A stretch of DNA of 64,000 bases from Candidatus Gastranaerophilaceae bacterium (GTDB lineage Bacteria > Cyanobacteriota > Vampirovibrionia > Gastranaerophilales > Gastranaerophilaceae): contig JBAYNW010000001.1 in NCBI GenBank assembly GCA_041678605.1, positions 13,947 to 77,946 of the forward strand. The letters are read 5' to 3'. Under the pieces are notes generated by a model. It had not been told where the DNA came from. It did not search any database and was given only the letters and a program-made list of their open reading frames with translations. This document shows, in pieces, positions 8,345-48,308 of the stretch (positions are counted from its first letter, which is position 1; each line of letters opens with the position of its first letter). Both the position numbers and the translations under genes were made by a program.

Positions 8345-8345
8345 G

Positions 8346-12854: not shown

Positions 12855-13084
12855 GGGTAAATGGGAAAGGGAAACAGGAAAAGGTGGAAACGGTGAGACG
12901 TGAGAGGTGAGACGTGAGAAGAGAAACGGGAAACGGGAAAGGAAATTGGGAATTGGGAATTGGGAATTGGTAATTGAACCGTTCGACCATTCAACCATTC
13001 AACCATTCAGCCTTTAAGCCTTTCGACTTATCAACTCCCTTAATCACTTCGTAAAAAGCCTTTCAACTGTTCAACCTTTCAACC
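12855..13084. repeat. composite heptanucleotide (STRR-like) repeat array, forward orientation
   Basis: Successive tandem 7-mers GTGAGAC/GTGAGAG, GAAACGG, GGGAATT/GGTAATT, TTCAACC/TTCGACC, CTTAAGC and CTTATCA, then CTTAATCACTTCGTAAAAAGCC. Confidence 0.9.
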
Positions 13085-19748: not shown

Positions 19749-19896
19749 AAGGTCGAAAGGCTTTTTACGAAGTGATTAAGTGACTGGGTGATTAAGTGAC
19801 TAAGTGCAACAAAAAAAATTAAAACTTTTCTTTTCCCGTTTCTCTTCTCACGTCTCACCTCTCACGTTTCCCCCTTTCCTTTTCCCGTTTCTTTCA
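19721..19896. repeat. composite heptanucleotide repeat array, reverse orientation
   Basis: GGTTGAA units, GGCTTTTTACGAAGTGATTAAGTGACTGGGTGATTAAGTGACTAAGTGCAAC, AAAAAAAATTAAAAC, CCCGTTTC and CTCACGT units. Confidence 0.9.
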
Positions 19897-28808: not shown

Positions 28809-28831
28809 TTGTTATGTAAATCCTTTTAATA

Positions 28832-29282
28832 AGTGATTAAGTGACTAGGTGACTAAGTGATTAAGTGCAATTAAGTTTTTTTATCTAAATATTTTTTTAA
28901 TCCTGATGTTAAAGCACTAATTTTACCTAATTCATTCAGCAATACATCTAAATTATCTAAATATCCTAAATTTTTTGAAATAATCAATTGAGTTTCAAGT
29001 TCGGCAATTGACCCTAACGCAATATCTAGAAATCTTGAAGTTTCTCTAGCCGAGTATCTGGCACAACCCTCTGCAATATTTGAAGGAATAGAGATAACGC
29101 ATCTCCTAATTTGATTTGTTAAACTAAACATTTCATATTTAGGAAATTTATTTGTAATTAAATAAATTTTTGTTACGAAATTAATTGATTCTTTCCAAGC
29201 TTCTAAATCTTTATGATGCATCCTTATTTATATCCTTCTTTTTGTTGCACTTAGTCACTTAATCACCTAGTCACTTAGTTAC
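28832..29282. mobile_element. cassette: four-helix-bundle gene bounded by ~40-bp imperfect terminal inverted repeats of the CACTTAATCAC module
   Basis: Left AAGTGATTAAGTGACTAGGTGACTAAGTGATTAAGTGCAA (28832-28871). Right TTGCACTTAGTCACTTAATCACCTAGTCACTTAGTTACTT (29243-29282). About 36/40 complementary. Confidence 0.4.
28871..29221 (-). CDS. four-helix-bundle protein (23S rRNA intervening-sequence protein / Avd-like family)
   Basis: Motifs DLEAWKES, FPK.E.FSLTNQIRR...SIPSNIAEG and GS..ELETQL. Confidence 0.85.
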   Translation of the reverse strand: MHHKDLEAWKESINFVTKIYLITNKFPKYEMFSLTNQIRRCVISIPSNIAEGCARYSARETSRFLDIALGSIAELETQLIISKNLGYLDNLDVLLNELGKISALTSGLKKYLDKKT

Positions 29283-29287
29283 TTTTA

Positions 29288-32263: not shown

Positions 32264-32348
32264 GAAGGAAGAGGAAACGGTGAGACGTGAGAGGGAAGAC
32301 GTGAGAAGAGAAACGAGAAGCTTTGAGGTTCAGAAGGTTAGAGGTTTA
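32264..32348. repeat. short heptamer array (GTGAGAC/GAAACG/GGTT units)
   Basis: GAAACGGTGAGACGTGAGAGGGAAGACGTGAGAAGAGAAACGAG ... GAGGTTCAGAAGGTTAGAGGTTTAG. Confidence 0.75.
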
Positions 32349-32379
32349 GTAATATAAACCAAACTTCCCGTTTCCCCCG

Positions 32380-33141
32380 TCAATAACTCATCTGCCAGCC
32401 TTCGTCGATGATTCTGCCGATACAATAGGAACCGGATTTATTTGTTCCGCCGTTATATCCGTCGTTACAAAGCTTGTTGGATTTCCAGTAGGTAAGTTTA
32501 GCCCCGCCAACGGGATATAATGCAGGGCCATTATCATTGACAATCCTAAAGTAAAATATATCGCGACCAAAAGCATTTGGTTTTTTGAGCCCGTTTACAT
32601 CAATATAAACACTTGCCATACATACTTTTGTCAGAGAATCAGCTGAACCGCTGCAACCTAAATATGGGGTTTTGCCAAGAAAAACCGACATACCATCCGC
32701 TGTTATAAACCTGTAATAAGATGTCCAATCATATCCACTTGAAGTGTTAGTGCCATCAAAATTTAGTGCTATTGTATTTGAAAAACAGCCTGAGGTTGTC
32801 GTATCACAATTCTTTGCCACATTAAAATAAGCAGCTATCTTATCGCCCATAGTTTTTGCATCGGCCGAATCAAAGAAGCAGCTTAAATCACCTATGCATC
32901 CTGAATCTGCGGCCATCTGGATTAATGCCTGATTCCACAAGGAGTAAGCTTTTCTCACGCCTGCGACGTATCCTACTTTTTGGGATTCGGCAATCAGTCC
33001 CGGAATCATAAGCCCTGCGACCACGCCGATAATGCCGATTGTGACTAAAACTTCGGCGAGAGTGAAGGCGAGTGAGCGAAAGAAAACTCCCTGCTGTTGG
33101 GCTTGCCAGCCCAACCTACTTTGTTTTTTATCGGATTTCAT
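32380..33141 (-). CDS. prepilin-type N-terminal cleavage/methylation domain protein (pilin/pseudopilin-like)
   Basis: FTLAEVLVTIGIIGVVAGL class III signal region. C-terminal IDVNG.KKPN..GRDIF motif shared with ORF 57501-58193. Confidence 0.7.
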   Translation of the reverse strand: MKSDKKQSRLGWQAQQQGVFFRSLAFTLAEVLVTIGIIGVVAGLMIPGLIAESQKVGYVAGVRKAYSLWNQALIQMAADSGCIGDLSCFFDSADAKTMGDKIAAYFNVAKNCDTTTSGCFSNTIALNFDGTNTSSGYDWTSYYRFITADGMSVFLGKTPYLGCSGSADSLTKVCMASVYIDVNGLKKPNAFGRDIFYFRIVNDNGPALYPVGGAKLTYWKSNKLCNDGYNGGTNKSGSYCIGRIIDEGWQMSY

Positions 33142-33168
33142 AAATCTTTTCCTTCCAAAGCTTCATTT

Positions 33169-33205
33169 TGCTAGTACCACTAGTTGTAACCCATGCTAGT
33201 ATAGC
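33169..33205. promoter_or_regulatory. candidate operator in divergent XRE/prepilin intergenic region
   Basis: Direct repeat TGCTAGTA (33169-33176 and 33194-33201). Small palindromes CTAGTACCACTAG and GCTAGTATAGC. Confidence 0.3.
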
Positions 33206-33218
33206 TAACAATTAGGAA

Positions 33219-33434
33219 ATGGACAAGGAATATTTACAAAAATTTGCAAACAATCTGAAAAAAATTAGGAACAAAAAAGGCCTAAAACAAGACGACTTAG
33301 CTGTTTCGGATGAAATTTCGCGTTCCATGATAAGTCTGGTTGAGACGGTAAAAACAGACCTCACCGTTACCAAGGTAAAAATAATTGCCGATGCCCTTGG
33401 TGTAAACCCCAAGGAGTTATTTGATTTTGATTAG
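33219..33434 (+). CDS. XRE-family helix-turn-helix transcriptional regulator
   Basis: LKKIRNKKGLKQDDLA....ISRSMISLVE HTH pattern; 71 aa. Confidence 0.75.
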   Translation: MDKEYLQKFANNLKKIRNKKGLKQDDLAVSDEISRSMISLVETVKTDLTVTKVKIIADALGVNPKELFDFD

Positions 33435-33441
33435 CCGCAGT

Positions 33442-33801
33442 TTAGCCATAACGTTTGATTAATGCTTCATTGATGAGGTGGGAAACTGAAACACCCTCGT
33501 CTTCAGACTTTTTTAAAAGTTTTAAATGCATAGACTTGGAAGTCCTGACGTTAATTTTTCCGTTCGCCTTGCTTTCATCAATTAAAACAGGCTCAACGCC
33601 ATCTTCCAAAAGAGTTTCTACGTATAATTCAAGAGCTTCCTTAATGTTTTTTTCAGCTTCTTCAATCGTATCTCCGCCGGAATAGCAGGAAATACCCTCA
33701 ACTCTGGCGGCATAGCCTTCGGATGGGACATACTCAAATTCAAACTTCCAAGGTAAGCTTAAATAATATTCTTTTGTTTTTAATTCTTTTTTGTCATTCA
33801 T
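33442..33801 (-). CDS. hicB: HicB-family antitoxin (no adjacent HicA)
   Basis: YAARVEGISCYSGGDTIEEAEKNIKEALELYVE HicB fold pattern, plus a C-terminal ribbon-helix-helix-like segment (MHLKLLKKSEDEGVSVSHLINEAL). Confidence 0.7.
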   Translation of the reverse strand: MNDKKELKTKEYYLSLPWKFEFEYVPSEGYAARVEGISCYSGGDTIEEAEKNIKEALELYVETLLEDGVEPVLIDESKANGKINVRTSKSMHLKLLKKSEDEGVSVSHLINEALIKRYG

Positions 33802-37793: not shown

Positions 37794-37918
37794 GTTACTT
37801 AAAAATGCCCCATTTATTCCCGTTTGAGCGGTATTTTCCGTACGCCGAAAAAGTATCTTTTAAGGGCGTTAGTTGTGATGAATAATTTTACGAGAATGTG
37901 AAAGTAGGAGTTTTATTT

Positions 37919-38833
37919 ATGAAAAACGAAAAAATTAAGATGAGAAAGACTTCAAGGCTGACAAATCCGGCAAGAAACAGTGTTTTGCAGAGCAGCAGTG
38001 ATGATTTGCTGACATGTTATTTGAGAGAAATTTCGGGCTATCCGGCATTAAGTGCTGCCGAAGAAAAAGAAATTGCAAAGCGTGCAAAAGAAGGCGATAA
38101 ACAGGCCAAAAAACAGCTTGTCAGGGCAAATTTGAAACTGGTAATAACAATTGCCAGAAAGGCTATCCACATATCCAGAATTCCCATGATTGACCTAATT
38201 CAGGAGGGAAATTTGGGATTGATGATTGCGGTTGAAAAATTTAATTACAAACTCGGATACAAGTTTTCGACTTACGCAAGCTGGTGGATAAAACAATCAA
38301 TGTTTAAGGCTATTTCAGAGCAATCGCATTGCATGAAAATTCCTGTTTACATTCAGGAAACCCTGTCCAAATTCTCTAAAATTAAAGCTGAGATGGAGCG
38401 TCAGTACAACTGTCAGGTAAAGACATGCGATGTCGCAAAAAAAATGAACATACCTGCGGATAAAATTGATTCCTATCTTTCCGCATACTCCAAAACAATC
38501 TCAATAGAGGGCGGTTTTGATACAGACAGCGGGAAGGAAATAAGCGTAGCCGACATTTTGGAAGATGAAAAATCCTGTGTTCAGTCAAATGTGGAGTTTG
38601 AACACTTGCACAAAGATATTGAAATCGTAGTTTCGACGTTAAAAGAAAGGGAGCAGGATGTCGTCAGAATGCGTTACGGGCTGGGCGAATTTGCGAGGCA
38701 AACTCTTGAAGAAATCGGAAATATTTACGGCGTGACAAAAGAATGTATCCGCCAAACAGAATTGAGAGCCTTAAAAAAAATGCGTTCTTCGGCATTCGGG
38801 CAGGATGTCTTGTCTTGCTATATCAATGAGTAA
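37919..38833 (+). CDS. RNA polymerase sigma-70 family factor (RpoD-like, short)
   Basis: Region 2 LIQEGNLGLMIAVEKFNYKLGYKFSTYASWWIKQS; region 4 LEEIGNIYGVTKECIRQTELRALKKM. AGGAG RBS before the ATG at 37919. Confidence 0.85.
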   Translation: MKNEKIKMRKTSRLTNPARNSVLQSSSDDLLTCYLREISGYPALSAAEEKEIAKRAKEGDKQAKKQLVRANLKLVITIARKAIHISRIPMIDLIQEGNLGLMIAVEKFNYKLGYKFSTYASWWIKQSMFKAISEQSHCMKIPVYIQETLSKFSKIKAEMERQYNCQVKTCDVAKKMNIPADKIDSYLSAYSKTISIEGGFDTDSGKEISVADILEDEKSCVQSNVEFEHLHKDIEIVVSTLKEREQDVVRMRYGLGEFARQTLEEIGNIYGVTKECIRQTELRALKKMRSSAFGQDVLSCYINE

Positions 38834-38840: not shown

Positions 38841-39232
38841 TCGAAAGGCTTAAGGGCTTAAGGGCTTTTTACGAAGTGATTAAGTGACTGGGTGATTAAG
38901 TGATTAAGTGCAATAATGCTTCGCAAATTTTTAAAAAACAGGGAACGGGGGGCAGGGAAGGGAATTTCTTGTCGTTGCGAGGAGAAACAAAGTTTCGACG
39001 AAGCAATCCAAAAAATTGCCTCATTATTCCTGAAAGGCTTTTTACGAAGTGATTAAGTGACTGGGTGATTAAGTGATTAAGTGCAACAAAAAAATTAAAA
39101 CTTTTCTTCTCACGTCTCACCTCTCACGTCTCACGTTTTCCCAATTCCCAATTCCCAATTCCCAATTTCCTTTTCCCGTTTCCCGTTTCTCTTCTCACGT
39201 CTCACGGTTTCCCCCATTTTCCATTTCCATTT
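38841..39232. repeat. composite repeat block (reverse orientation) containing two direct copies of the ~50-nt CACTTAATCAC module
   Basis: GGCTTTTTACGAAGTGATTAAGTGACTGGGTGATTAAGTGATTAAGTGCAA occurs near 38862 and 39036, followed by CTCACGT, CCCAATT and CCCGTTT heptamer runs. Confidence 0.9.
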
Positions 39233-39315
39233 GTAAATATTCTTTATATAATTAGTAGCTTTTTATTTTTTTTGTAGCATAATGTAGGAGTTACACAAAA
39301 TATGGAAAGAAAACA

Positions 39316-39618
39316 ATGTACGAACAAAACTACGAAAACCAACAACTACAGTGTGTTGAATGTGGAAAAATCTTTGAATTTCTAGCAGAAGATCAAGAAT
39401 TTTACGCAAAGAAAGGCTATTCAGCTCCGAAAAGATGTCCTGAATGCCGCGAAAACAGAAAAGCAAGAAGTAACAACTCAAGAGGGGGCGGGTACAGAGA
39501 AAAAAGAGAATATCCTGTAACCTGTGCAGCTTGCGGTTGTGAAACTACAGTGCCTTTCAAACCAAGCAACGACAGACCAGTGTTCTGTTCTGACTGCTAC
39601 AAAAAAGGACAACAATAA
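39316..39618 (+). CDS. zinc-ribbon protein (two CxxC...CxxC units)
   Basis: CVECGKIFEF....RCPECRENRKA and CAACGCETTVPF.....FCSDCYKK. Confidence 0.7.
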   Translation: MYEQNYENQQLQCVECGKIFEFLAEDQEFYAKKGYSAPKRCPECRENRKARSNNSRGGGYREKREYPVTCAACGCETTVPFKPSNDRPVFCSDCYKKGQQ

Positions 39619-39701
39619 CTGAAAATCTAAAATTTTAAAACACAGAAATTAATCTGTTAATATAATTTAGAAAAAATCGGTTTATATTTGAAACTTTTAA
39701 A

Positions 39702-39726
39702 AACCTCACGTAAGTGGGGTTTTTTG
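39702..39726. terminator. bidirectional rho-independent terminator between convergent genes
   Basis: AAAACCTCAC-GTAA-GTGGGGTTTTTT: a 6-bp GC-rich stem flanked by an A-run and a T-run. Confidence 0.6.
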
Positions 39727-39791
39727 TAATGTAGAAATAAAAATAGCGGGTTTTAAAAATTAAACCCACTATTTAAATTTATTTTATATTT

Positions 39792-40412
39792 TCAGTATTC
39801 AATTTGTTCAAATACTTTTGGCAACTGGGATAAATCATCTATAACAAATTTATGGACCGGTTGCCCTTCAAGGATTGGATTAAGTTGTTCACTAAGAAGT
39901 TGGTTTAATCTTGCAGCAGCCCAAGTTCCTTCCACTTTAGATTTTTCACCGCTTGAAACTTTTTGTAATCCTTCGTTAATAACTTTTTTCGTTAATGCAA
40001 ATATATTTTTTGCGAACAATAAATGACTTGCTCCATCTTTTTGTTCTTTTGTAAGAACTGTGAATGAGTGGTGGCTTTGACTTAATGGTTCTGCAATAGG
40101 AATACCAGTATTTCGACTCAACCAAGAAGTAGAATAACCTCCAATTTTTTTTAATTCTTCTGCAATATTGGCATATCCAGGTTGCTCAAGATATACAACA
40201 GTCTTATTAAATTTTTTACCTAAGCCGCATAAACTTAATACTGTTCCTAATTTACTATTAACTTCATTGGTTACTTTAATGGTTGCATTATTAAATTGTT
40301 TACTTACAGCAACTAAATCTTCAGGATTTTTAAAAGCTTTTCTTGACACTTGAACTAAATTCACACTTCCAAAACTTGCTTGATTGTTATTTTGCACTGG
40401 GGTAACATTCAT
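39792..40412 (-). CDS. hypothetical protein (orphan family with shared upstream motif)
   Basis: 206-aa ORF with RBS AAAGGAG. N-terminus MNVTPVQNNNQASFGSVNLVQV. Confidence 0.55.
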   Translation of the reverse strand: MNVTPVQNNNQASFGSVNLVQVSRKAFKNPEDLVAVSKQFNNATIKVTNEVNSKLGTVLSLCGLGKKFNKTVVYLEQPGYANIAEELKKIGGYSTSWLSRNTGIPIAEPLSQSHHSFTVLTKEQKDGASHLLFAKNIFALTKKVINEGLQKVSSGEKSKVEGTWAAARLNQLLSEQLNPILEGQPVHKFVIDDLSQLPKVFEQIEY

Positions 40413-40682
40413 TTTAATTTCTCCTTTACGTTATATGTTACTTACTAAAATTACATTGATGTTTATATAAAGTCCGTAAAGGAAAAATTTTACCCTTTTG
40501 GAAAAATTATTTACAAAAATTAATACTCAACATTTTTACGCTTAAAATTTTACTCCGATTTTCAGAGAGTTAGGCAACTTAGATATACAAATACCACAAG
40601 TAACAACTCAGGTAAAAATGCAAACAAGTCTTGCATCATTGTGAGGAGGTAAATGTTCTGACCTATGCTAAAGAGCGTTCGA

Positions 40683-40818
40683 GTCATTGCGAGGGGTGGG
40701 TTTCCGGCTATGCATAGATTGTCCACCGAAGCAATCTATCTTATGTTTGTACATTGGCAAGATTGCTTCGAAATGCAAACCTCTTTGTGTGTCTACAAGT
40801 TTCATGCCTCGCAATGAC
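40683..40818. repeat. palindromic miniature element GTCATTGCGAGG ... GCCTCGCAATGAC
   Basis: Terminal 12-13-bp inverted repeats. Internal CCACCGAAGCAATC / GATTGCTTCG pair. Related copies at 5915-6049, 56017-56110 and 57003-57096; half copies at 1360-1398, 38975-39025 and 46637-46685. Confidence 0.8.
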
Positions 40819-40889
40819 GCGGCAGTGTAAGTTTTAAGTGTGTTTATTTCTTGCCGACTTGAGTTATTACCTGTTACAACCCTTGTTAA

Positions 40890-42098
40890 TTATACTTTAA
40901 CTGCCGGTGACGTATTTATAAATTTGTCGAGGTGGCTGTATTTTGAATAGGACCCTTCAGGGTCGCGTCTTATCGCTTCAATTTCGTTACGGATGCTCAC
41001 AAAAAGTTCCGCCAAATTAGGGTCAAACTGTGTTCCCGAGCAGGTTCTTATCTCTTTAATAGCTTCCTCGTGCGAAAGAGCCTTTCTATAAGAGCGGTCG
41101 GAAGTCATGGCATCATAAGTGTCAGCGATTGCAATAATTCTGGACGAAATCGGAATTTGCTCTCCTGAAAGCCCTTCAGGATAACCTCTTCCATCGTACC
41201 GTTCGTGGTGGGATTTTAGCCAATTTGAAATTAGTTTAAGTTTTTCGATTCCGCTAACCAATTTTCCCCCAAGTGCAGGGTGGGTCTTTATAACCTCATA
41301 TTCTTCAATTGTCAGCTTTCCCGGTTTTAGAAGAATTTTCTCGGGAATAGCTATTTTGCCAATGTCGTGCAAAAGTCCCGTTGTTTCTATTTCTTCCAAT
41401 AAATCGTCCGAAAGGTTCAAGTGTTTTGCCAGAGCCAGAGAGTACAAAGTTACTCTCATTGAGTGGCCGAGGGTATACTTATCTTTTGCATCCAGTGCGT
41501 AGGCAATAGATTTTATTGTCTTGTAAAATAATTCCGACAAATCCCGCAAAATCTGCGTTCTGGAAGTGCTGATTTCGTATTTCTTAATCCCGCTTTCCAC
41601 AATCATGCATAATTGTTCAGGTTCAAACGGTTTCAAAATGTATTGAAAAAGGTGGCATTCATTTATTGCTTCTACCAGTATATCTATGTTTGAGTAGCCG
41701 GTTAGTAATATCTTTACGATATCAGGGTATTTTTCATATATCCTTTTAAAAAGTTCTGTTCCTTCCATAATGGGCATTTTTTGGTCAGAAACTATCAGCG
41801 AAATCTCTTTCCCGTGTTCCTCAAGTATATCGAGAGCTTCCCGGCCGCTTGAGGCCAAAAGGACATTATACTTATTCTTGAATATCCTCTGAAGCAGGTC
41901 CAGATTGCTTTTTTCATCATCAACAGCAAGAATTGTATGCTTTTTGTCTTCGCCTTTTGACAAAAGAATGTGTTCTAAATCTGAACTAATGGTTTTGTTA
42001 AAGTAATTTTTACTCAATAACCTGTCCTTTTTCACTACCACTAAAGGAATAACGACATAAAAACGATTTTCTTTAAGATTGTAGCACAATTGTAACAA
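40890..42098 (-). CDS. response regulator with HD-GYP (c-di-GMP phosphodiesterase-type) output domain
   Basis: Receiver ILAVDDEKSNLDLL...SDQKMPIMEG. HD-GYP motifs GLLHDIGK and HHERYDGRGYPEGL. Start codon uncertain. Confidence 0.8.
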   Translation of the reverse strand: MLQLCYNLKENRFYVVIPLVVVKKDRLLSKNYFNKTISSDLEHILLSKGEDKKHTILAVDDEKSNLDLLQRIFKNKYNVLLASSGREALDILEEHGKEISLIVSDQKMPIMEGTELFKRIYEKYPDIVKILLTGYSNIDILVEAINECHLFQYILKPFEPEQLCMIVESGIKKYEISTSRTQILRDLSELFYKTIKSIAYALDAKDKYTLGHSMRVTLYSLALAKHLNLSDDLLEEIETTGLLHDIGKIAIPEKILLKPGKLTIEEYEVIKTHPALGGKLVSGIEKLKLISNWLKSHHERYDGRGYPEGLSGEQIPISSRIIAIADTYDAMTSDRSYRKALSHEEAIKEIRTCSGTQFDPNLAELFVSIRNEIEAIRRDPEGSYSKYSHLDKFINTSPAVKV

Positions 42099-42157
42099 AA
42101 ATTCAAATAGAATTAATTAGTTCAGCATGACGTATTTACTTTTTGTGTCAACAGACC

Positions 42158-43396
42158 CTAGTTCTTTTCTTCCTCAATCATTTTAGCCAAAACCATTTTC
42201 GCTTTGCGAAGTTGGACATCATTTCTGTTAAATATATCTTTTTCAGTCAATTTCACTTCAATGTCGGGAGCTATACCCTTTTTATTAATATCATGCCCCG
42301 CAGGAGTCAAATATTTTGCGATTGTTAAATTCAATCCTGTTTCATTGGGCATTGGGATAATTTTTTGAACCATTCCTTTTCCAAACGTTTTTGTCCCGAT
42401 TAATGTCGCCTTGTGATAATCTTTCAAAGCCCCCGATAATATTTCACTCGCACTTGCAGATGCCCCGTCAACCAGTACCAGCATAGGTTTATCTACAACA
42501 TATTCGGTTTCTTGTGCGTAAATGTCTTTCTTGTAACCGTTTCTGCCGACTATACTGACCAGAGTTCCTTTGTTGATGAACATGTTCGCTATGAAAACAG
42601 CATTGGGTAACAATCCGCCGGTATTTCCTCTTAAATCTATTATAAGCCCCTTTGTGTTGTTTGTTTTTTCAAGTGCGTCTATAAATTCACTTGAAGTCGT
42701 ATTCCCGATAAAGCTTAAAACCTGTATATATCCTATGTTTTTGTCAATAGAGCTTTTTACGGTTTTAATTTTTATTTCCTTTCGTATTATTTTTTTTGTT
42801 ATTAATCCCTTTTTTCTTAAAACGGTAATTTTTACAACAGTATTTTCCGGCCCTCTCACCAAATCCGCAACTTCGGAAGCTTTCATTCCCGAAATTTCTT
42901 TTCCGTTGACTTTCAGAATTATATCCCCGCTTTTAAGCCCCGCAAAAAATGCCGGAGTGGACTCAATTACACTCACAACATAAGTTTTTCCGCCCAAAGA
43001 AGATATATTAACCCCGATGCCCGTGATTTTTGAATCTATCGAAGTGTTTTGCTCCGCATAATTTTTTTTATCCAAATATCTGGAGTACGGGTCGTCCAAG
43101 CTTTCCAGCATAGTACCTATCGCAACGTTAGCATCGTCATCATTCTTTATTTTGCCGCGATAATGGCTCTCCCACCTGCTCCAGTCTTGCCCGTTCAAAG
43201 AGGAATCATAAAAATTCTTTTTAACGATTTTCCAGGTTCTGTTGAATAAAGTTTGAGAATTTACATGCTCTTTATTGACTAATTCCTGAGTGTTCGTAAT
43301 AGTTGAATTTGTGACAAAATCCCCCATCAGAATTTTATTGAAAATAAAAAGTGCCAGTACTAATAAAATAAATATAATAAATTGTTTTTTCTTCAT
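42158..43396 (-). CDS. ctpA: carboxyl-terminal processing peptidase (S41 family)
   Basis: PDZ segment GIGVNISSLGG.....GLKSGDIILKVNG. Motifs DLRGNTGGLL and LVDGASASASEILSGALKD...ATLIGTKTFGKG. Confidence 0.85.
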   Translation of the reverse strand: MKKKQFIIFILLVLALFIFNKILMGDFVTNSTITNTQELVNKEHVNSQTLFNRTWKIVKKNFYDSSLNGQDWSRWESHYRGKIKNDDDANVAIGTMLESLDDPYSRYLDKKNYAEQNTSIDSKITGIGVNISSLGGKTYVVSVIESTPAFFAGLKSGDIILKVNGKEISGMKASEVADLVRGPENTVVKITVLRKKGLITKKIIRKEIKIKTVKSSIDKNIGYIQVLSFIGNTTSSEFIDALEKTNNTKGLIIDLRGNTGGLLPNAVFIANMFINKGTLVSIVGRNGYKKDIYAQETEYVVDKPMLVLVDGASASASEILSGALKDYHKATLIGTKTFGKGMVQKIIPMPNETGLNLTIAKYLTPAGHDINKKGIAPDIEVKLTEKDIFNRNDVQLRKAKMVLAKMIEEEKN

Positions 43397-43464
43397 TTTT
43401 AACTCTTCTCTCAATAACATTTAATACCAACATTTGTTTTTTTTCAATAGCCTTATAGAGAATA

Positions 43465-43708
43465 GTGAAGGAGAAGGGGGGAAAGTGAGACGTGAGAGGT
43501 GAGACGGGAAACGGAAATTGGTAATTGGTAATTGGGAATTGGGAATTGGTAATTGAACCGTTCGACCCTTCAACTTATCGACTCATCGACTTATCGACTT
43601 ATCAACTTATCAACTAGAAAACGGGAAAAGAAAAGTTTTAATTTTTTTGTTGCACTTAGTCACTTAATCACCCAGTCACTTAATCACTTCGTAAAAAGCC
43701 TTTCAGCC
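43465..43708. repeat. composite heptanucleotide repeat array, forward orientation
   Basis: GTGAGAC, GAAACGG, GGTAATT/GGGAATT, TTCGACC and CTTATCGA runs, then GTTGCACTTAGTCACTTAATCACCCAGTCACTTAATCACTTCGTAAAAAGCC. Confidence 0.9.
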
Positions 43709-44872
43709 TCATTTATACACTTCAACGTATTTTGGATTAACGGCCAGCCATTTGAAAGATTGCGGCGATGTGTCGGGGATATCAATAACGAAAGTTCCGC
43801 CGTATCGGCCTCTTACAAATCTCAAATAACCTTCATTTGCAAGATTGTTCAAAGCCTTTCGGATAGTATTCGGGCTTAAGTCGAGTTCTTTTGACAATTC
43901 CATGATGGAAGGCAATTTTGAACCGATTTCATAATTCTGTGCAATCAAGGCCTTAATATGATTTTGGGTTTTTTCGTAGTTGTAAAATGCTGTTTCCTGA
44001 GCCGAGGCAAAAATTGATGTTTCTTTTTTAGGGGAAAGAATATTTTCACCGGGCATCTTTATAACAGTTGTGCCGTACCGGCCCCTGCGTGCGAGTAAAA
44101 TTCCCTTTTTAATTAAAGATTTAAGTGCATCATGAATTGTTTTTATGCTTACTTTTAATTCGGCGGACAACCGCTCGTGAGCAGGTAATTTGTCACCTAC
44201 GTTCAATTTTTTTGTAATATATTTTTCCAAGTCTTTTTCAACTTTTTCAACCAGAGTAACGTTATCTGAAATATCCAATTTTGTCCTCGGCATTGAAAAA
44301 TTATCCGACGCAAGAATCCATCTGGCTTCGTTTGACATCTTAAATTTGTGTTCAAGAATTCTCATGGAGCACAAAGCCTCCAAAGCAAGCCTTGTGGTGT
44401 TTGGAGAAATCCCTATTGAAGTTGCCAAAACCCTTGAAGAAGGGAGTTTTTGGCCTATCTTTATTTTTTTGTCAATAATATATTTTTTGATTAAATCAAC
44501 GCAAATATCTCTTTTGGAAGTCAATTTTCTGAGGGTGGAAGTGGATTTTTTCCAATTTCTTACCATGGTGCCGATACACTGCTTTGATTCTACATGCCCC
44601 TTGTCCTCAACATATCTGAATGCGTTTTGCATTGTTCCGATACTCACACCCAAATGATATGCCAAATCTGCCTTTTGAGGCAGCAGGTCGGTTTCTTTTA
44701 TTTTCCCCGCCTTAAAATCGGCTTCAATCCAATCAATCAGCCAATTTGCGACCACCATGGCCTTTGATTCAAAAATATTTTTTAAATCAGGAAACGGGAC
44801 AGAAACATCTTTAACACTGAGTTTTCTGAGATTATTTTTATCCAATAACAAGAATTCATCTGTTTTTTTCAC
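43709..44872 (-). CDS. protein with four tandem GntR-type winged-helix HTH domains
   Basis: Four repeats of the pattern (G/D)xKLPSxxxL(A/S)xxLxVSxxTxxxALxxLxxxGxL: LPQKADLAYHLGVSIGTMQNAF, LPSSRVLATSIGISPNTTRLAL, LPAHERLSAELKVSIKTIHDAL, LPSIMELSKELDLSPNTIRKAL. Confidence 0.7.
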   Translation of the reverse strand: MKKTDEFLLLDKNNLRKLSVKDVSVPFPDLKNIFESKAMVVANWLIDWIEADFKAGKIKETDLLPQKADLAYHLGVSIGTMQNAFRYVEDKGHVESKQCIGTMVRNWKKSTSTLRKLTSKRDICVDLIKKYIIDKKIKIGQKLPSSRVLATSIGISPNTTRLALEALCSMRILEHKFKMSNEARWILASDNFSMPRTKLDISDNVTLVEKVEKDLEKYITKKLNVGDKLPAHERLSAELKVSIKTIHDALKSLIKKGILLARRGRYGTTVIKMPGENILSPKKETSIFASAQETAFYNYEKTQNHIKALIAQNYEIGSKLPSIMELSKELDLSPNTIRKALNNLANEGYLRFVRGRYGGTFVIDIPDTSPQSFKWLAVNPKYVEVYK

Positions 44873-44991
44873 GATTAGCCTCCACGCTTCAAACTAATTA
44901 TACAGTTAATATAAAAAAACAAGCAACTTTTTTTTGCTAGCAAACGCCAAAACCTTTACAAATCTTAAGGTTGGCAGAACATAGAATAAGT

Positions 44992-45233
44992 TTATGAGTC
45001 GATGAGTCGAAAGGTTAATTTTTCAGTGTCGTTGCGAGGAGAAACAGTGAGACGTGAGAGGTGAGACGTGAGAAGAGAAACGGGAAACGGGAAAGGAAAT
45101 TGGGAATTGGGAATTGGTAATTGAGAACAGAACCCTTCGACCATTCAACTCTTCGACCTTTCAACCCTTCAGCCTTTAAGCCCTTAAGCCCTTCGACTTA
45201 TCAACCCTTCAACTTATCGGCTTAATCACTTCG
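44992..45233. repeat. composite heptanucleotide repeat array, forward orientation
   Basis: Same module order as 12855-13084. Its 3' end supplies the stop codon of ORF 45226-45687. Confidence 0.9.
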
Positions 45234-45687
45234 ATTTACCTATTCCAAAGGCTTCTTGAAGCAAGAAAATTCCGCCGTAGGCTATAAGCCCCGCTCCGCA
45301 AAATTTTGAGAAAATCTGTTTCCCGCCTCTTTTGCCGAAGAAGGTCCCGATTGCTAGTCCGAAAGGAATAACTTCGCTTACGAGCATTGAGGCAAAGCCT
45401 TTGCCGTAGCCGGCAATATTTGTGAAGAAGCCGGTCAAATTTTCATCAAGAGAGTATTTAAACAATTCTTTTTTAACGCCTGCCTCAACAGTACTAGGGC
45501 TGTCAAGCTTCATATCATCCAAATAGCGTTCTGTTAAGCCTGTTGCTTTGTGATTTTTTTCATAGGCACTGGCTTTAATTTTGCCGGCAATGTGAGAATC
45601 GTAGGCAATTAAGCCCAAAGTTGCGGCTCCTAAAGTTTGAGTCAAAACATTTGCTATTTTTATAGTTTTAATATTCGGAATTTTCAT
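45226..45687 (-). CDS. hypothetical membrane protein
   Basis: 153 aa, three to four hydrophobic segments, no recognisable domain. Confidence 0.45.
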   Translation of the reverse strand: MKIPNIKTIKIANVLTQTLGAATLGLIAYDSHIAGKIKASAYEKNHKATGLTERYLDDMKLDSPSTVEAGVKKELFKYSLDENLTGFFTNIAGYGKGFASMLVSEVIPFGLAIGTFFGKRGGKQIFSKFCGAGLIAYGGIFLLQEAFGIGKSK

Positions 45688-45690
45688 AAA

Positions 45691-46359
45691 TTATTCCTTT
45701 TTGGTTTCTTTTTCAGGTTTTTCCTTGACCTCAAATTCCTTTTGCATCGGATTGCCTGACATTTTCAATAAAATATTTGAAGCTTTCAGTGAATCTTCAC
45801 CGTAGCCCGTTTTTTGTTTTTGGATATCTTTAAGAAGTTTTACAGAAGTGTCATTGCCTGTTGCCAATCTGGATTCCAGAGCCGCCATAGCTATAAATTT
45901 AACAGGTTGAGAAGGGTCTTGAAGCATTTTATTGACCAAAGCATTCAATGCAGGGTCATTTTTTCTGCTGTCATCTTCCTGAAGTCTTGCCAAAACCTCT
46001 TTTGCACCCATTAGCCGTACATCTTTGTTCTGGTTATTCAAATAACCTTCCAGTGTTTTTACGTAATCATCCGTGAGCTGAACCACTTCACGCTTTTCTG
46101 TTTTTTTCTTCTCTGGTACTTGTGCCGGTGCGGATTGAACCGGAGCCGGAGTTGTAGGCTGAGCAAGGTTTTGCGTATAGTAACTTGCAGGATAGCTCGG
46201 ATTTGTAGAGTAATTCGCCGCATTAACCGTTGATGCGGGAACACTTGCACCGGGTGCCGCAACTGAAGGATTAAATATCTGAATATTTACTCCCGAATAA
46301 TTCGGTACCTGAACGTTTTGAGCTTGTCCAACCATATCTGCCATAAACTTACCTTTCAC
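45691..46359 (-). CDS. hypothetical protein: Pro/Ala-rich N-terminal half and HEAT-like C-terminal half
   Basis: ORF stop lies 3 nt upstream of the start of ORF 45226-45687. VRLMGAKEVLARL...VKFIAMAALESRL helical repeats. Start at 46359 (GTG) or 46344 (ATG). Confidence 0.5.
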   Translation of the reverse strand: MKGKFMADMVGQAQNVQVPNYSGVNIQIFNPSVAAPGASVPASTVNAANYSTNPSYPASYYTQNLAQPTTPAPVQSAPAQVPEKKKTEKREVVQLTDDYVKTLEGYLNNQNKDVRLMGAKEVLARLQEDDSRKNDPALNALVNKMLQDPSQPVKFIAMAALESRLATGNDTSVKLLKDIQKQKTGYGEDSLKASNILLKMSGNPMQKEFEVKEKPEKETKKE

Positions 46360-46432
46360 TACTTATCTAAATAAAGTCTAAAACCATGAAATAATTGCCT
46401 TTTTTAGGAATTTTTTAAGAAATGTAACAATG

Positions 46433-46842
46433 GTTGGTTGGCTTTTTGCGAAGTGATTAAGGGAGTTGATAAGTCGAAAAGGCTTAAGGGCTTAAAGGGT
46501 GAAGGGTTGAAGGGTTGAAGGGTCGAATAGCTTTTTACGAAGTGATTAAGTGACTGGGTGATTAAGTGATTAAGTTCAATAATGCTTCGCAAATTTTTAA
46601 AAAACAGGGAACGGGGGCAGGGAAGGGAATTTCTTGTCGTTGCGAGGAGAAACAAAGTTTCGACGAAGCAATCCAAAAAATTGCCTCATTATTCCTGAAA
46701 AGCTTTTTACGAAGTGATTAAGTGACTGTGACCGGGTTGAACGGTCGAACGGTTCAATTACCAATTCCCAATTACCAATTCCCAATTTCCTTTCCCGTTT
46801 CCCGTTTCTCTTCTCACGTCTCACTTCCCTCCTGTCCCCTTT
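46433..46842. repeat. composite repeat block, reverse orientation, with a near-identical copy of the 38862-39087 unit
   Basis: 46529-46728 matches 38862-39087 with about 4 differences. Flanked by GGTTGAA, CCAATT and CCCGTTT heptamer runs. Confidence 0.9.
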
Positions 46843-46869
46843 TTCGGCTAACTGTTATATAATAATTAA

Positions 46870-47175
46870 ATGCAGAATTCAGAATTTATTAAAAGCAGGC
46901 CGCAGAGGCTTTGTAAGATGTGCGGGAAATGCCCAGAGGGTTATCCGCTTTCCATTTGGGATAAAATGCCTGAAGGTTGCGGATTTGAAGGTTGGCTTTT
47001 TCAAAAAAAAGAAGAAATAAAACAAAAAATCCGCAAACAAAAAGAACTTTTGTTGTCGCTTGAGGTTATGGTAAAAACAGTAACTCCCGAGCAGGCTGAA
47101 AAATTAAGCGAAAGCATAAAAAAAATTAAAAAAACAATAGAAAGTTATGCAAAATACGGCTCCGAAAATTGGTAG
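46870..47175 (+). CDS. hypothetical small protein with CxxCxxC motif and coiled-coil tail
   Basis: 101 aa; CKMCGKCPEG....GCGFEGW, then a Lys/Glu-rich helix. Confidence 0.45.
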   Translation: MQNSEFIKSRPQRLCKMCGKCPEGYPLSIWDKMPEGCGFEGWLFQKKEEIKQKIRKQKELLLSLEVMVKTVTPEQAEKLSESIKKIKKTIESYAKYGSENW

Positions 47176-47181
47176 AAAGAC

Positions 47182-47580
47182 AAGGGCTTAAAAAGTGAGA
47201 CGTGAGATGTGAGACGTGAGAAGAGAAACGGGAAACGAGAAAGGAAATTGGGAATTGGTAATTGGAAACAGAACCTTTCGACCATTCAATTTAGTGACTT
47301 AAATTCAGATCCCGCATCAGAATGAATAACAAAAGTCAACCGCCATACCCTAAGCAGTGCGGGATGACAATAAAGTGAAAAGGTAATTGGAAATTGGCAA
47401 TTGGGAATTGGTAATTGAACCGTTCGACCCTTCGACCCTTCGACTTATCAACTAGAAGACGGGAAACGGAAAGTTTTAATTTTTTTGTTGCACTTAATCA
47501 CTTAATCACCCAGTCACTTAATCACTTCGTAAAAAGCCCTTCGACCTTTCAACCCTTCACCCCTTAAGCCCTTAAGCCCT
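47182..47580. repeat. double composite heptanucleotide array (two forward units separated by a TCCCGCA/TGCGGGA palindromic unit)
   Basis: Unit 1 at 47182-47300; palindromic unit at 47309-47366; unit 2 at 47380-47580, ending at the stop codon of the NarL-type regulator. Confidence 0.9.
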
Positions 47581-48308
47581 TATACCAATCCCTCGCGGAC
47601 TGCCTTAACTGCCGCCTGTACTCTGTCATTTACGCACATTTTTTGCAAAATCGAGCAAACGTGAGCTTTCGCTGTGTGAACGCTTACAATTAATTCTTTT
47701 GCAATTTCCGTATTGCTTTTTCCCATGACAAGATGTTTTAAAACTTCACATTCTCTTTCTGTCAGAGGAACTCGGCCGGTGGCCCCCGTTTTTGACGGCA
47801 AAAGACTTGTGTTTTCAGGTTTAGGGAAAGCGTTTAATGCTATCTGTGCTACTTGCGGGTCAATCCAGCAAACACCATTTGCAACATCTCTAACCACGTC
47901 GGCAAGTTTCACCGGATCAATGTCCTTAAGGCAATATCCGTGGGCTCCTGACGCAAGTGCCGCTATAACTTCCTCTTCCCTGTCGTGAGAAGTAAGTGCT
48001 ATGATTTTTGTTTCGGGCAGTATTTCTTTTACCTTAATTGTTGCTTCTATTCCATTCATCTCCGGAAGTCCCAAATCCATCAAAACTACATCGGGTTTAA
48101 ATTTGGCTATAAGTTCCAGCCCTGCTGCAGCATTGTCACACTCGGCAATAACATTTATATCTTTGTTCGAATTTAACGCACACCGCAATCCCACTCTTGT
48201 TAATTTAAAATCTTCAACAATTATAACGTTTAATGCTTTTATTTTTGTACTGTCATTTTCGGCAGGCTTATGTTTGTGCTTCGATGAAGCAGTTTTTGTT
48301 TCGCTCAT
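47580..48308 (-). CDS. NarL/FixJ-family response regulator (LuxR-type HTH)
   Basis: Receiver VIIVEDFKLTRVGL...DLGLPEMNG. HTH LTERECEVLKHLVMGKSNTEIAKELIVSVHTAKAHV. No histidine kinase is adjacent. Confidence 0.85.
   Translation of the reverse strand: MSETKTASSKHKHKPAENDSTKIKALNVIIVEDFKLTRVGLRCALNSNKDINVIAECDNAAAGLELIAKFKPDVVLMDLGLPEMNGIEATIKVKEILPETKIIALTSHDREEEVIAALASGAHGYCLKDIDPVKLADVVRDVANGVCWIDPQVAQIALNAFPKPENTSLLPSKTGATGRVPLTERECEVLKHLVMGKSNTEIAKELIVSVHTAKAHVCSILQKMCVNDRVQAAVKAVREGLV

What the first reader, a model, noticed from the sequence alone, without database searches (positions are those of the whole stretch)
38841..47582. Accessory island in which composite repeat arrays punctuate single-gene or two-gene cassettes
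Seen in sequence: the layout is array (38841-39232), zinc-ribbon gene and an orphan gene, palindromic element (40683-40818), then HD-GYP regulator and ctpA. It continues with array (43465-43708), 4xGntR gene, array (44992-45233), a two-gene unit, array (46433-46842), a small Cys-motif gene, a double array (47182-47580) and the NarL-type regulator. Several genes end within or exactly at an array: the stop codon of ORF 45226-45687 lies inside array 44992-45233, ORF 43709-44872 ends at 43709 immediately after array 43465-43708, and ORF 47580-48308 ends at 47580, the last base of array 47182-47580. Most enclosed genes are orphans or orphan regulators. Inference: the arrays may act like cassette boundaries for recombination-driven gene shuffling, analogous in layout only to integron attC-separated cassettes. 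No integrase is present in the window.
Basis: partly seen in the sequence, partly recalled or inferred. Interest (0 to 1): 0.65.

Follow-up and report, generated by a model that had tools for sequence, protein, structure and literature searches.

The report
Genome-wide mosaic short-repeat arrays, not cassettes
The "arrays" are real copies of one lineage-specific mosaic repeat, built from 7- and 8-base tandem units, that fills spaces between genes all over the chromosome of an uncultured melainabacterium; they are a relative of known cyanobacterial intergenic repeats rather than integron-like cassette boundaries.

Summary
All five arrays, the palindrome, the gene identities and the stop codons at array edges are in the sequence and far beyond chance.

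Each array is a full or partial copy of one composite element. Its modules keep a fixed order: (GTGAGAC)n-(GAAACGG)n-(AATTGGK)n-octamers-conserved core of about 65 bp-octamers.

The family is genome-wide. There are about 15 further sites in the window, and 107 arrays in 413 kb once 42 contigs from one metagenome are added. It also lies beside core genes (aspS|ribF, upstream of dnaA).

Arrays sit a median 20 nt from stop codons and about 120-136 nt from starts. They show no orientation rule, fold worse than shuffled sequence, and no recombinase is nearby.

The host is a Melainabacteria/Gastranaerophilales-like bacterium. Relatives have only small arrays.

The integron analogy fails. Array modules do border lineage-specific insertions (a four-helix-bundle gene between fliQ and fliR, and a pilin-like gene plus HicB). 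They are commoner at non-conserved junctions (40% vs 11%, p≈0.02), but this disappears when spacer length is controlled.

Arrays are far more uniform than the paralogous genes they flank, so the repeats, not the genes, are the active entity.

Verdict: a new variant of a known kind, of moderate-to-low interest.

The parts
38841..39232 (-). Composite array with module order d-e-[nested 126-bp MITE-like insert, about 38912-39038]-e-a-c-b-a. It starts 7 nt after the sigma-70 stop and ends 84 nt before the zinc-finger gene start.
40680..40821 (.). Palindromic REPIN/MITE-like doublet (GTCATTGCGAGG...GAAGCAATCT / AGATTGCTTCG...CCTCGCAATGAC), downstream of the HD-GYP gene.
   Evidence: z -5.0; copies of this element in L101, L107, L113, and a related GTCGTTGCGAGG-type doublet at about 56000-56120 and 57000-57120
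43465..43708 (+). Composite array A-B-C-D-E-D. It abuts the stop codon of the 4xGntR gene (0 nt) and lies 45 nt upstream of the ctpA ORF start.
44992..45233 (+). Composite array (d)A-B-C-D. It contains the TGA stop of ORF 45226-45687 and lies 120 nt from the 4xGntR start.
46433..46842 (-). Composite array d-e-[the same nested MITE-like insert, about 46577-46700]-e-d-c-b-a, between divergent genes. Positions 46509-46728 are 95% identical to 38843-39063.
47182..47582 (+). Two arrays (A-B-C-D at 47182-47300 and C-D-E-D at 47372-47582) separated by a small hairpin-type repeat (about 47305-47370). They lie between convergent genes, and the NarL TAA stop is the last repeat unit.
37898..38833 (+). 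Sigma-70 family factor. It has 3 paralogues in the 42 array-bearing contigs.
39316..39618 (+). Treble-clef / CxxC-x17-CxxC zinc-finger protein.
39792..40412 (-). 206-aa protein with no family hit.
40890..42098 (-). Response regulator with an HD-GYP (HD_5) domain. Its adjacency to ctpA is conserved in relatives.
42158..43420 (-). CtpA-type S41 C-terminal processing protease (called as 412 aa in databases). Used as the anchor for comparative loci.
43709..44872 (-). Protein made of four tandem GntR-type winged-helix domains with no effector domain, flanked by two arrays in direct orientation.
45226..46359 (-). Two-gene unit. The 222-aa protein belongs to an uncharacterised family with 337 representative homologues. 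The 153-aa protein has no family hit.
46870..47175 (+). Small Cys-motif protein (101-aa ORF, called as 85 aa) with no family hit.
47580..48308 (-). NarL/LuxR-type response regulator.
12859..13084 (+). Canonical composite array (B-A-B-C-D) between aspS and ribF. This adjacency is also present, with a 118-119-nt spacer, in gut relative L056.
19727..19893 (-). Canonical array (d-e-b-a-b) 48 nt upstream of dnaA.
28830..29285 (.). Four-helix-bundle / 23S-rRNA-IVP-family gene (28871-29221, minus strand) bracketed by inverted copies of about 40 bp of the E core (28830-28872 and 29243-29285). It is inserted between fliR and fliQ, which are adjacent in three relatives.
32274..33801 (-). Array (32274-32376) plus a type-IV-pilin-like gene (32380-33141) plus HicB (33442-33801). 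This lies between fliN and yebC, which are 139 nt apart in relative L135.

Best explanation
The region is ordinary chromosome of an uncultured Melainabacteria (Gastranaerophilales-like) bacterium. Its genome has been colonised by a lineage-specific family of mosaic intergenic repeats.

What the repeat is. Each 'array' is a complete or partial copy of one composite element of roughly 100-400 bp. Blocks of 7-bp units (GTGAGAC, GAAACGG, AATTGGK) and 8-bp units (RACCNTTC-type, CACTTAAT) follow a fixed order around a nearly invariant core of about 65 bp. Nested MITE/REPIN-like palindromes often sit inside.

Shown here. The family is dispersed over more than 100 sites. Its module grammar is conserved. 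It runs up to stop codons but stays about 120 nt from gene starts. It shows no orientation rule. It is far more uniform than the genes it flanks.

Inferred. Copies spread or are homogenised by a copy-and-paste or gene-conversion process whose enzyme is not in the window. Block lengths drift by replication slippage. Selection removes copies that damage promoters or coding sequence. Arrays therefore accumulate in spacers between independent transcription units. The finding region is a run of short, separately transcribed genes, so arrays appear to 'punctuate cassettes'.

As dispersed near-identical DNA the arrays probably also favour rearrangements and insertions, or settle preferentially in new junctions. 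This would explain their presence at some lineage-specific junctions.
For: Module order is conserved in an alignment of 8 window arrays. It also holds in 107 arrays over the window plus 42 contigs of metagenome Ga0172381.

The core pattern matches 8 times in the window (7 exact, 1 with one mismatch, none with 2-3 mismatches). In 57 copies the core flanks not fixed by the search pattern are a median 91% identical. The 10 pilin-like paralogues embedded between arrays are a median 75% identical at nucleotide level.

Of the 107 arrays, 96 lie outside ORFs. The median distance to a neighbouring stop codon is 20 nt, and about 120-136 nt to a neighbouring start. There is no preference for gene direction (47 against 36, and 36 against 33) or for flank configuration (++15, --16, -+12, +-14).

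Canonical arrays lie beside core genes: aspS|ribF, whose adjacency is also present in relative L056, and upstream of dnaA. Simpler 7-/8-mer arrays of other units lie at accC|accB and accB|efp.

Assemblies break inside arrays.

Relatives have few small arrays, with different units: a median 0.47 rows per 10 kb against 8.1 in the window.

No recombinase or transposase was found in the window. The only multi-copy gene families in 413 kb are the pilin-like family and sigma-70.

Published heptamer repeats in Xanthomonas and Nostoc show the same placement, close to the upstream ORF's 3' end, with length variation and no association with instability (PMC4692102).
Against: The dispersal mechanism is not shown. 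No mobilising enzyme was identified, and the genome was sampled rather than complete.

The strong conservation of the 65-bp core could instead reflect function. Part of that conservation is ascertainment, because the contigs were found with an exact pattern.

Arrays are enriched at junctions that differ from relatives (40% against 11%, p=0.023). They also flank clear insertions. A more active role in rearrangement is therefore not excluded.

Five of the seven large arrays in the window lie within 8.7 kb. This clustering is only partly explained by gene structure.
Confidence: 0.65

Rival explanations
1. Dispersed arrays act as portable homology. Small gene units bounded by arrays are excised, inverted or inserted by array-to-array recombination, giving cassette-like shuffling without an integrase.
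For: Array modules lie at both junctions of the four-helix-bundle gene inserted between fliQ and fliR. They also lie at the fliN-side junction of the pilin-like+HicB insertion. An array sits at the upstream border of the conserved ctpA/HD-GYP block, which is inverted relative to ENA contig NODE_13. Arrays are more frequent at non-conserved junctions (18/45 against 2/18, p=0.023). Ten or more pilin-like paralogues are each embedded between arrays. The two island arrays carrying the same nested insert are each other's best match, at 95%. A toxin-antitoxin pair elsewhere in the window is flanked by 209-bp direct repeats that contain a palindromic element.
Against: Flanking arrays are inverted as often as direct: only one of four island units has direct flanks, and the fliQ/fliR insert has inverted flanks. 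This does not fit excision and reintegration. Arrays are much more similar to each other than the flanked paralogous genes are (91% against 75%), so the genes did not move recently with them. Breakpoints without arrays exist at 23467-23561, 34577-34630 and 8345-8548. An inversion between relatives L083 and L086 has no arrays at its ends. The enrichment vanishes when only spacers of at least 100 nt are compared (p=0.29). The only other assemblies of this population are colinear.
Confidence: 0.17
2. The arrays are functional cis elements. They could be binding platforms for a DNA-binding protein (for instance the adjacent four-winged-helix GntR-like protein, or a nucleoid protein), non-B DNA or G-quadruplex regulators, or transcribed 3'/5' UTR elements that insulate neighbouring genes.
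For: The 65-bp core is nearly invariant in more than 50 copies. Placement directly after stop codons is stereotyped. G4 motifs occur 8 times in the window against 0.055 in shuffles, 5 of them in island arrays, as in the GGGNATC repeats of Xanthomonas and Nostoc, which are mostly transcribed (PMC4692102). Heptamer repeats affect promoter activity of recO and recF in Nostoc (bioRxiv 10.1101/2022.06.06.494920). The octamer units carry stop codons that fall in all three frames.
Against: There is no orientation preference relative to genes. No promoter-like or terminator-like signal in the region exceeds chance. Single-strand structure is worse than random. No Rfam family matches. Module number and composition vary freely. 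Some copies lie inside coding sequences. Relatives lack these units altogether, so no conserved cellular function depends on them.
Confidence: 0.13
3. The arrays are an assembly artefact or chimera of low-complexity reads.
For: Short-read contigs often end inside arrays.
Against: An independent ENA assembly spans four of the five arrays with 1 mismatch and 1 gap in 14.46 kb. A Logan contig matches at 100%. The arrays have a consistent grammar and respect reading frames and stop codons.
Confidence: 0.01

Closest known systems
Cyanobacterial STRR (short tandemly repeated repetitive heptamers; Mazel et al. 1990, cited from my own knowledge) and related heptamer repeats in Nostoc, Xanthomonas and Beggiatoaceae (PMC4692102; bioRxiv 10.1101/2022.06.06.494920)
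   Same: They are tandem 7-bp units dispersed at many chromosomal sites. They are overwhelmingly non-coding and lie close to the 3' end of the upstream ORF. Unit number varies. They occur in the sister lineage of Melainabacteria. Module C (GGGAATT) differs by one base from the Xanthomonas GGGAATC unit and can form G4 motifs.
   Different: The unit sequences differ: STRR1-3 are absent. Here 7-mers and 8-mers are combined in a fixed multi-module order around a non-repetitive 65-bp core. The host is a non-photosynthetic melainabacterium. The full-text search found no paper combining Melainabacteria, tandem repeats and intergenic.
Bacterial interspersed mosaic elements (BIMEs) built from REP/PU motifs in enterobacteria (from my own knowledge; the reference list of PMC3116915 cites related work)
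   Same: They are extragenic mosaics of several short motifs in a stereotyped order, present in hundreds of copies. They often lie just after stop codons or between convergent genes, and other small elements insert into them.
   Different: BIME units are palindromic hairpins. These arrays are strand-asymmetric tandem repeats that fold worse than random. No RAYT or other dedicated enzyme was seen.
Integron gene cassettes with attC sites
   Same: The layout looks similar: short repeats between one- or two-gene units.
   Different: There is no IntI, no attC-type imperfect hairpin, no uniform gene orientation and no single platform. The repeats occur all over the chromosome, including beside core genes.
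MITEs/REPINs (PMC3116915) and small dispersed repeats of Nostoc (Elhai et al. 2008, cited there; the paper was not readable here)
   Same: The nested 126-bp insert, the 140-bp palindrome at 40680-40821 and the element around rsgA have terminal inverted repeats, form hairpins and are multi-copy. They nest inside other repeats, as described for cyanobacterial small dispersed repeats.
   Different: These are passengers within or beside the arrays, not the arrays themselves. No cognate transposase was identified.

Membership tests
Integron (attC-bounded gene cassettes) | A tyrosine recombinase IntI with attI next to the cassette array | tested here: not met
   No integrase or recombinase domain was found in any window ORF of at least 100 aa (Pfam). 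The rest of the genome could not be scanned with HMMs.
Integron (attC-bounded gene cassettes) | attC sites that are imperfect palindromes folding as single-strand hairpins | tested here: not met
   Arrays 43465-43708 and 44992-45233 fold worse than 199/200 and 200/200 shuffles (z +2.1 and +2.7).
Integron (attC-bounded gene cassettes) | Cassettes that are co-oriented, promoterless and confined to one platform | tested here: not met
   Enclosed genes lie on both strands. Arrays occur at about 20 sites in the window and 107 sites in 413 kb.
Cyanobacterial STRR | Tandem heptanucleotide units | tested here: met
   Modules GTGAGAC, GAAACGG and AATTGGK are 7-mers with 2.6-5.7 copies. However, half of each array consists of 8-mers.
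Cyanobacterial STRR | Many dispersed, mainly non-coding chromosomal copies | tested here: met
   There are 107 arrays, 96 of them outside ORFs.
Cyanobacterial STRR | Unit sequences STRR1-3 (CCCCAGT, TTGGTCA, CAACAGT) in heterocystous cyanobacteria | tested here: not met
   There are no tandem occurrences of the three units. The closest relatives of the host are Melainabacteria/Gastranaerophilales MAGs.
BIME / REP mosaics | A mosaic of distinct short motifs in a stereotyped order at extragenic sites | tested here: met
   The A-B-C-D-E-D grammar is seen in the alignment and in the 107-array survey.
BIME / REP mosaics | Palindromic REP units, with an associated RAYT transposase in the genome | tested here: not met
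   The arrays lack self-complementarity. No multi-copy or transposase-like gene was found among 408 ORFs clustered. The RAYT search was by clustering only, not by HMM.
MITE / REPIN (applies only to the palindrome 40680-40821 and the nested inserts) | Terminal inverted repeats, hairpin potential and multiple dispersed copies | tested here: met
   Inverted arms and a z-score of -5.0. Copies occur at 38912-39038 and 46577-46700, around 56000 and 57000, and in L093, L101, L106, L107 and L113.
G4-forming GGGNATC-type heptamer repeats (PMC4692102) | Four or more G3 tracts from tandem heptamers, intergenic, near the 3' end of the upstream ORF | tested here: inconclusive
   (GGGAATT)4 at 39140-39163 and four other G4 motifs lie in island arrays. 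Many arrays have AATTGGT variants that break the G-tracts. G4 formation was not tested.

The most novel reading that the evidence does not exclude
The arrays act as a recombinase-independent counterpart of integron attC sites. They would be dispersed, homogenised homology blocks (some G-quadruplex-prone) through which small accessory units are inserted, duplicated and diversified around the chromosome. Candidate units are the four-helix-bundle gene, pilin-like genes with point-hypervariable positions, and toxin-antitoxin pairs. Expansion of the pilin-like family would be one product of this process.
Probability: 0.12. Interest if true: 0.65.

Novelty: new variant of a known kind. Interest (0 to 1): 0.35.

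Why it matters
Short tandem heptamer repeats (STRR) have been known in photosynthetic cyanobacteria for decades, but their origin and role remain unexplained.

This window shows a richer version in the non-photosynthetic sister lineage: mixed 7- and 8-mers in a fixed order around an invariant core, with nested palindromic elements. Some in-frame intrusions into genes occur as well. The tendency to grow such repeats may therefore be an old trait of the whole cyanobacterial clade.

The case offers a compact system for asking how these repeats spread. Practically, the arrays fragment short-read assemblies of these genomes. They can also be mistaken for mobile-element boundaries or for ORFs.

It would matter more if population data showed that arrays really mediate gene insertion.

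Tried and rejected
- **Rfam and tRNA/tmRNA scans.** Rfam at gathering thresholds over the whole window gave no match. The tRNA/tmRNA scan found none. There is therefore no tRNA-linked island and no known RNA.
- **Promoter and terminator scan of 38.5-48.5 kb.** Counts equal the shuffle expectation, and nothing lies in the arrays.
- **PADLOC and NCBIfam on the unknown island genes.** They gave only generic winged-helix hits for the 4xGntR protein and no defence-system hit.
- **Exact-protein look-up of the long CtpA ORF.** It failed because the database start differs. The 412-aa form worked.
- **Viral contig scan for the core pattern.** No hits.
- **Literature search for the GTCATTGCGAGG-type motif as a string.** It returned only unrelated primers.
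- **Elhai et al. 2008.** The paper could not be read.
- **All-against-all blastn of the 43 sequences.** It found no alternative contigs or duplicated segments of at least 400 bp at 90% identity or more. No structural polymorphism could be read from the assemblies.
- **Synteny with the 80 GTDB relatives around ctpA.** They are too divergent (65-77% amino-acid identity) to be informative beyond the ctpA/HD-GYP pair.
- **Horizontally acquired island.** Considered and rejected. G+C content is normal, and conserved chromosomal genes (the ctpA pair, and a sigma-70 gene near ctpA in L024) sit inside it.

Full report

Yes. Tandem Repeats Finder lists dense blocks of 7- and 8-bp repeats at exactly the five stated places. 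The sequence can be read directly.

- A 38-nt pattern from the CACTTAAT block occurs 8 times in the window, against 0.00 expected from dinucleotide shuffles.
- A GTGAGAC-type 21-mer occurs 18 times, against 0.00 expected.
- The palindromic element is real at 40680-40821. It has 15-nt outer and 20-nt inner inverted arms. Its single-strand fold z-score is -5.0.

Pfam confirms the gene calls:

| ORF | Identity |
|---|---|
| 37898-38833 | sigma-70 |
| 39316-39618 | treble-clef zinc finger |
| 40890-42098 | receiver + HD-GYP |
| 42158-43420 | S41/CtpA |
| 43709-44872 | four GntR winged-helix domains |
| 47580-48308 | NarL-type regulator |

The stop-codon statements are also correct.

- The TGA of 45226-45687 lies in the ...AAGTGATTAAGCC... 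run.
- The TGA of 43709-44872 is followed at once by GGCTGAAAGGC.
- The TAA of 47580-48308 is in register with the GGGCTTAA units.
- The sigma-70 stop precedes its array by 7 nt, and the small-gene stop precedes its array by 6 nt.

An independent ENA assembly (L081) covers 38935-53397 with one mismatch and one gap. A Logan contig (L082) is identical over 40753-43559. Both end inside repeats. The arrays are therefore not an assembly artefact.

**2. What the arrays are**

Aligning eight arrays in one orientation shows that they are versions of one composite element. The order is:

(GTGAGAC/G)n - (GAAACGG)n - (AATTGGK)n - AATTGAACCGTTCGACC(NTTCRACC)n - (ACTTATCR)n - AGAAAAGTTTTAATTTTTTTGTTG-CACTTAATCACTTAATCACCCAGTCACTTAATCACTT-CGTAAAAAGCC - (YTTCRRCC)n

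Modules may be missing or expanded, but their order holds.

Two island arrays (38841-39232 and 46433-46842) carry the same 126-bp MITE-like insert. It has terminal inverted repeats and an internal GTCGTTGCGAGG...CGACGAAGCAATCC motif, and it sits between two copies of the CACTTAAT block. These two arrays are each other's best match, at 95% over 221 bp.

As single strands the arrays fold worse than shuffled sequence (z +2.1 and +2.7). They contain no promoter- or terminator-like signal above chance and match no Rfam family.

**3. The arrays are not confined to the 'island'**

The same modules occur elsewhere in the window:

- at 12859-13084, between aspS and ribF;
- at 19727-19893, 48 nt upstream of dnaA;
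- at 28830-28872 and 29243-29285;
- at 32274-32376.

Simpler 7-/8-mer arrays of other units lie at 53476-53548 (accC|accB) and 54043-54107 (accB|efp).

Some copies lie in frame inside coding genes. rnhB (897-1772) carries an insertion of about 50 aa. The Cu-oxidase_4 gene carries 'ISAFQPFSPS' and a second repeat-derived segment.

By bases, the island is about 19% array and the rest of the window about 1.9%. The island is thus a local hot spot, with 5 of the 7 large arrays, but it is not a distinct entity. Its G+C content is unremarkable.

**4. Host and genome-wide picture**

Relatives of CtpA, FliR and AspS are all Melainabacteria/Gastranaerophilales MAGs. The closest representative genomes reach only 76% (CtpA).

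I scanned 241 million JGI metagenome records for the 38-nt core pattern. This returned 42 stretches (349 kb), all from one metagenome, Ga0172381, with many matches at contig ends.

These contigs share the window's G+C content (0.384 against 0.387). They encode proteins up to 92% identical to melainabacterial relatives. I therefore treat them as the rest of the same genome or population.

Over the window plus these contigs I found 107 arrays with the same grammar.

- 96 arrays lie outside ORFs.
- They show no preference for orientation relative to neighbouring genes (47 against 36 for the 'tail' side, 36 against 33 for the 'head' side).
- They show no preference for convergent, divergent or co-directional flanks (14, 12, 31).
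- They lie a median 20 nt from a neighbouring stop codon, often 0-10 nt or overlapping it. They lie about 120-136 nt from a neighbouring start.

This placement is what Rehm et al. reported for heptamer repeats in Xanthomonas and Nostoc (PMC4692102).

The 65-bp core is almost invariant. In the window, 7 of 8 copies match the pattern exactly and none has 2-3 mismatches. Across 57 copies, the flanks not fixed by the search are a median 91% identical.

Relatives carry only small single-module 7-/8-mer arrays with different units: a median 0.47 TRF rows per 10 kb, against 8.1 in the window. The tendency is therefore lineage-wide, but this family and its expansion are specific to this genome.

**5. 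Tests of the cassette idea**

*(a) Recombinase.* None was found. No ORF of at least 100 aa in the window has an integrase or transposase domain. Clustering 408 ORFs from 413 kb gave only two multi-copy families, a pilin-like protein (12 copies) and sigma-70 (4 copies).

*(b) Orientation.* Island arrays are oriented -, +, +, -, +, +. Only the 4xGntR gene has direct flanks. The enclosed genes lie on both strands.

*(c) Synteny.* Relatives with 82-84% CtpA identity (L083-L089) share only the ctpA/HD-GYP pair with the window. L086 and L089 are syntenic with each other over about 20 kb.

- In four relatives (L083, L086, L089, L090) a gene of about 247 aa directly precedes ctpA; its homology was not tested. 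No window ORF matches it in those loci. In the window, array 43465-43708 occupies that position.
- The other border of the pair carries the palindrome.
- The pair is inverted relative to ENA contig NODE_13.

The same contig is colinear with window 23.5-34.6 kb: 388-aa gene, PBP, murE, fliR, fliQ, fliP, fliO, fliN, yebC, at 71-96% identity. The window has two extra pieces against that backbone.

- A four-helix-bundle (23S-rRNA-IVP/TIGR02436) gene is bracketed by inverted copies of about 40 bp of the core. It lies between fliQ and fliR, which are 3-95 nt apart in three relatives.
- An array plus a pilin-like gene plus HicB lies between fliN and yebC.

Array modules therefore do sit at junctions of lineage-specific insertions.

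Against this, some breakpoints have no array (8345-8548, 23467-23561, 34577-34630, HicB|yebC). An inversion distinguishing L083 from L086 has no arrays at its ends. The aspS|ribF junction that carries a 226-bp array is an adjacency shared with the distant relative L056.

*(d) Junction test.* An automated test covered 63 scorable junctions.

| Junction class | With array | Total | Share |
|---|---|---|---|
| Non-conserved | 18 | 45 | 40% |
| Conserved | 2 | 18 | 11% |
| Non-conserved, spacer ≥100 nt | 13 | 23 | 57% |
| Conserved, spacer ≥100 nt | 2 | 6 | 33% |

The odds ratio for all junctions is 5.3, with one-sided p=0.023. Restricted to spacers of at least 100 nt, p=0.29. Conserved junctions are mostly tight operon spacers where an array could not be tolerated, so the association cannot be separated from that confound.

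*(e) Relative age.* The ten pilin-like paralogues, each embedded between arrays, are only 68-84% identical at nucleotide level (median 75%). The arrays beside them are 85-96% identical, and the core is essentially identical. The repeats are thus younger than, or homogenised independently of, the genes they flank. That is the opposite of what recently moved cassettes would show.

*(f) 'Orphan' content.* This is overstated. The 222-aa protein has 337 representative homologues, 96 of them at E<=1e-30 and the best at 69% identity. ctpA and the HD-GYP regulator are conserved. A sigma-70 gene lies 3.6 kb from ctpA in a gut relative.

**6. Interpretation**

I judge the best-supported reading, at about 0.65, to be a genome-wide, lineage-specific family of mosaic short-tandem-repeat elements.

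- It is STRR-like in unit size and placement.
- It is BIME-like in its mosaic grammar and in hosting nested small elements.
- Copies multiply or are homogenised by an unidentified copy or gene-conversion process.
- Copy lengths change by slippage.
- Copies persist where they do no harm: immediately after stop codons and between separate transcription units.

The finding region is a run of short, separately transcribed genes, so it looks 'punctuated'.

An active role of arrays as portable homology for insertion or inversion remains possible, at about 0.17. A cis-regulatory or protein-binding function is also possible, at about 0.13. An integron-like system is not supported.

**7. Novelty**

The kind is known: dispersed heptamer repeats in cyanobacteria and Xanthomonas, and mosaic extragenic repeats in enterobacteria.

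The variant is new in three ways: mixed 7- and 8-mers in a fixed six-module order around an invariant core; occurrence in a melainabacterium; and in-frame intrusions into genes. A full-text search found no paper combining Melainabacteria, tandem repeats and intergenic.

I rate it a new variant of a known kind, with interest about 0.35.

Noticed in passing
window 32380-33141; L093, L095, L101, L106, L107, L113, L115, L117, L127, L130: A protein with a type-IV prepilin motif (AFTLAEVLI) has 10 or more paralogues (64-82% aa, median 75% nt) in 349 kb of array-bearing contigs. Each is embedded between arrays. In most copies an array starts right at the stop codon, and in several copies repeat elements run into the cleavable leader peptide. 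The alignment shows conserved blocks with a few point-hypervariable positions, which suggests diversifying selection.
   Followed up: partly
window 28830-29285: A four-helix-bundle / 23S-rRNA-IVP-family gene, weakly similar to the DGR Avd protein, is inserted between fliQ and fliR. It is bracketed by inverted 40-bp copies of the array core. Three relatives have fliQ and fliR adjacent.
   Followed up: yes
window 55936-57130: A nucleotidyltransferase/HEPN toxin-antitoxin pair (56223-56913) is flanked by 209-bp direct repeats (93% identical). Each repeat holds the last 40 nt or so of rsgA plus a palindromic GTCGTTGCGAGG...GGATTGCTTCG doublet. It looks like an insertion with duplication of the target and of the MITE.
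   Followed up: partly
window 897-1772 (array 1288-1436) and 5326-6237 (5597-5630 and about 5900-6060): Repeat elements lie in frame inside conserved genes. rnhB carries an insertion of about 50 aa (…CHCEERGTSDAAIQ…SHLSPLTSH). The Cu-oxidase_4/YfiH-like gene carries repeat-derived segments (ISAFQPFSPS; …SLRGLKCKN…CLAMT).
   Followed up: partly
window 38975-39008, 46640-46673, 40680-40821, about 1360-1400, about 56020-56110: A second dispersed family, GTC(A/G)TTGCGAGG-N-CGA(A/C)G(C/T)(A/G)GCAATC, occurs alone, as inverted doublets (REPIN-like) and nested in arrays. When translated it gives the peptide motifs CHCEE…/…PRND….
   Followed up: partly
window 844-866, 1491-1512, 2725-2746: G-rich repeats (GGGCGAGGGTTTGGGGTGGGGGG and relatives) form G-quadruplex motifs. 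The same element occurs in L093 and L101 and is translated as '…SPLGGEGRVRV…' inside rnhB.
   Followed up: no
window 43709-44872: This protein consists only of four tandem GntR-type winged-helix domains with no effector domain, and it lies between two arrays. Whether such a protein binds tandem DNA repeats was not tested.
   Followed up: no
window 47305-47370; L091, L106: A small hairpin-type repeat (…ATCCCGCATCAGAATGAATAAC…GTGCGGGATGACAATAA) splits the double array. It recurs next to array cores in other contigs.
   Followed up: no
L083 versus L086/L089: Relatives differ by an inversion of the block of about 10 kb from the 350-aa gene to ctpA, relative to def/fmt and the HD-GYP gene. No arrays lie at the ends.
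   Followed up: partly
L138 12217-12305 and other sites; L078, L080: Other Melainabacteria carry their own 7-/8-mer arrays with different units (GGTAAAC x12.7, TAAGTGAA, CTTAGTGC). This indicates rapid turnover of unit sequences across the clade.
   Followed up: partly
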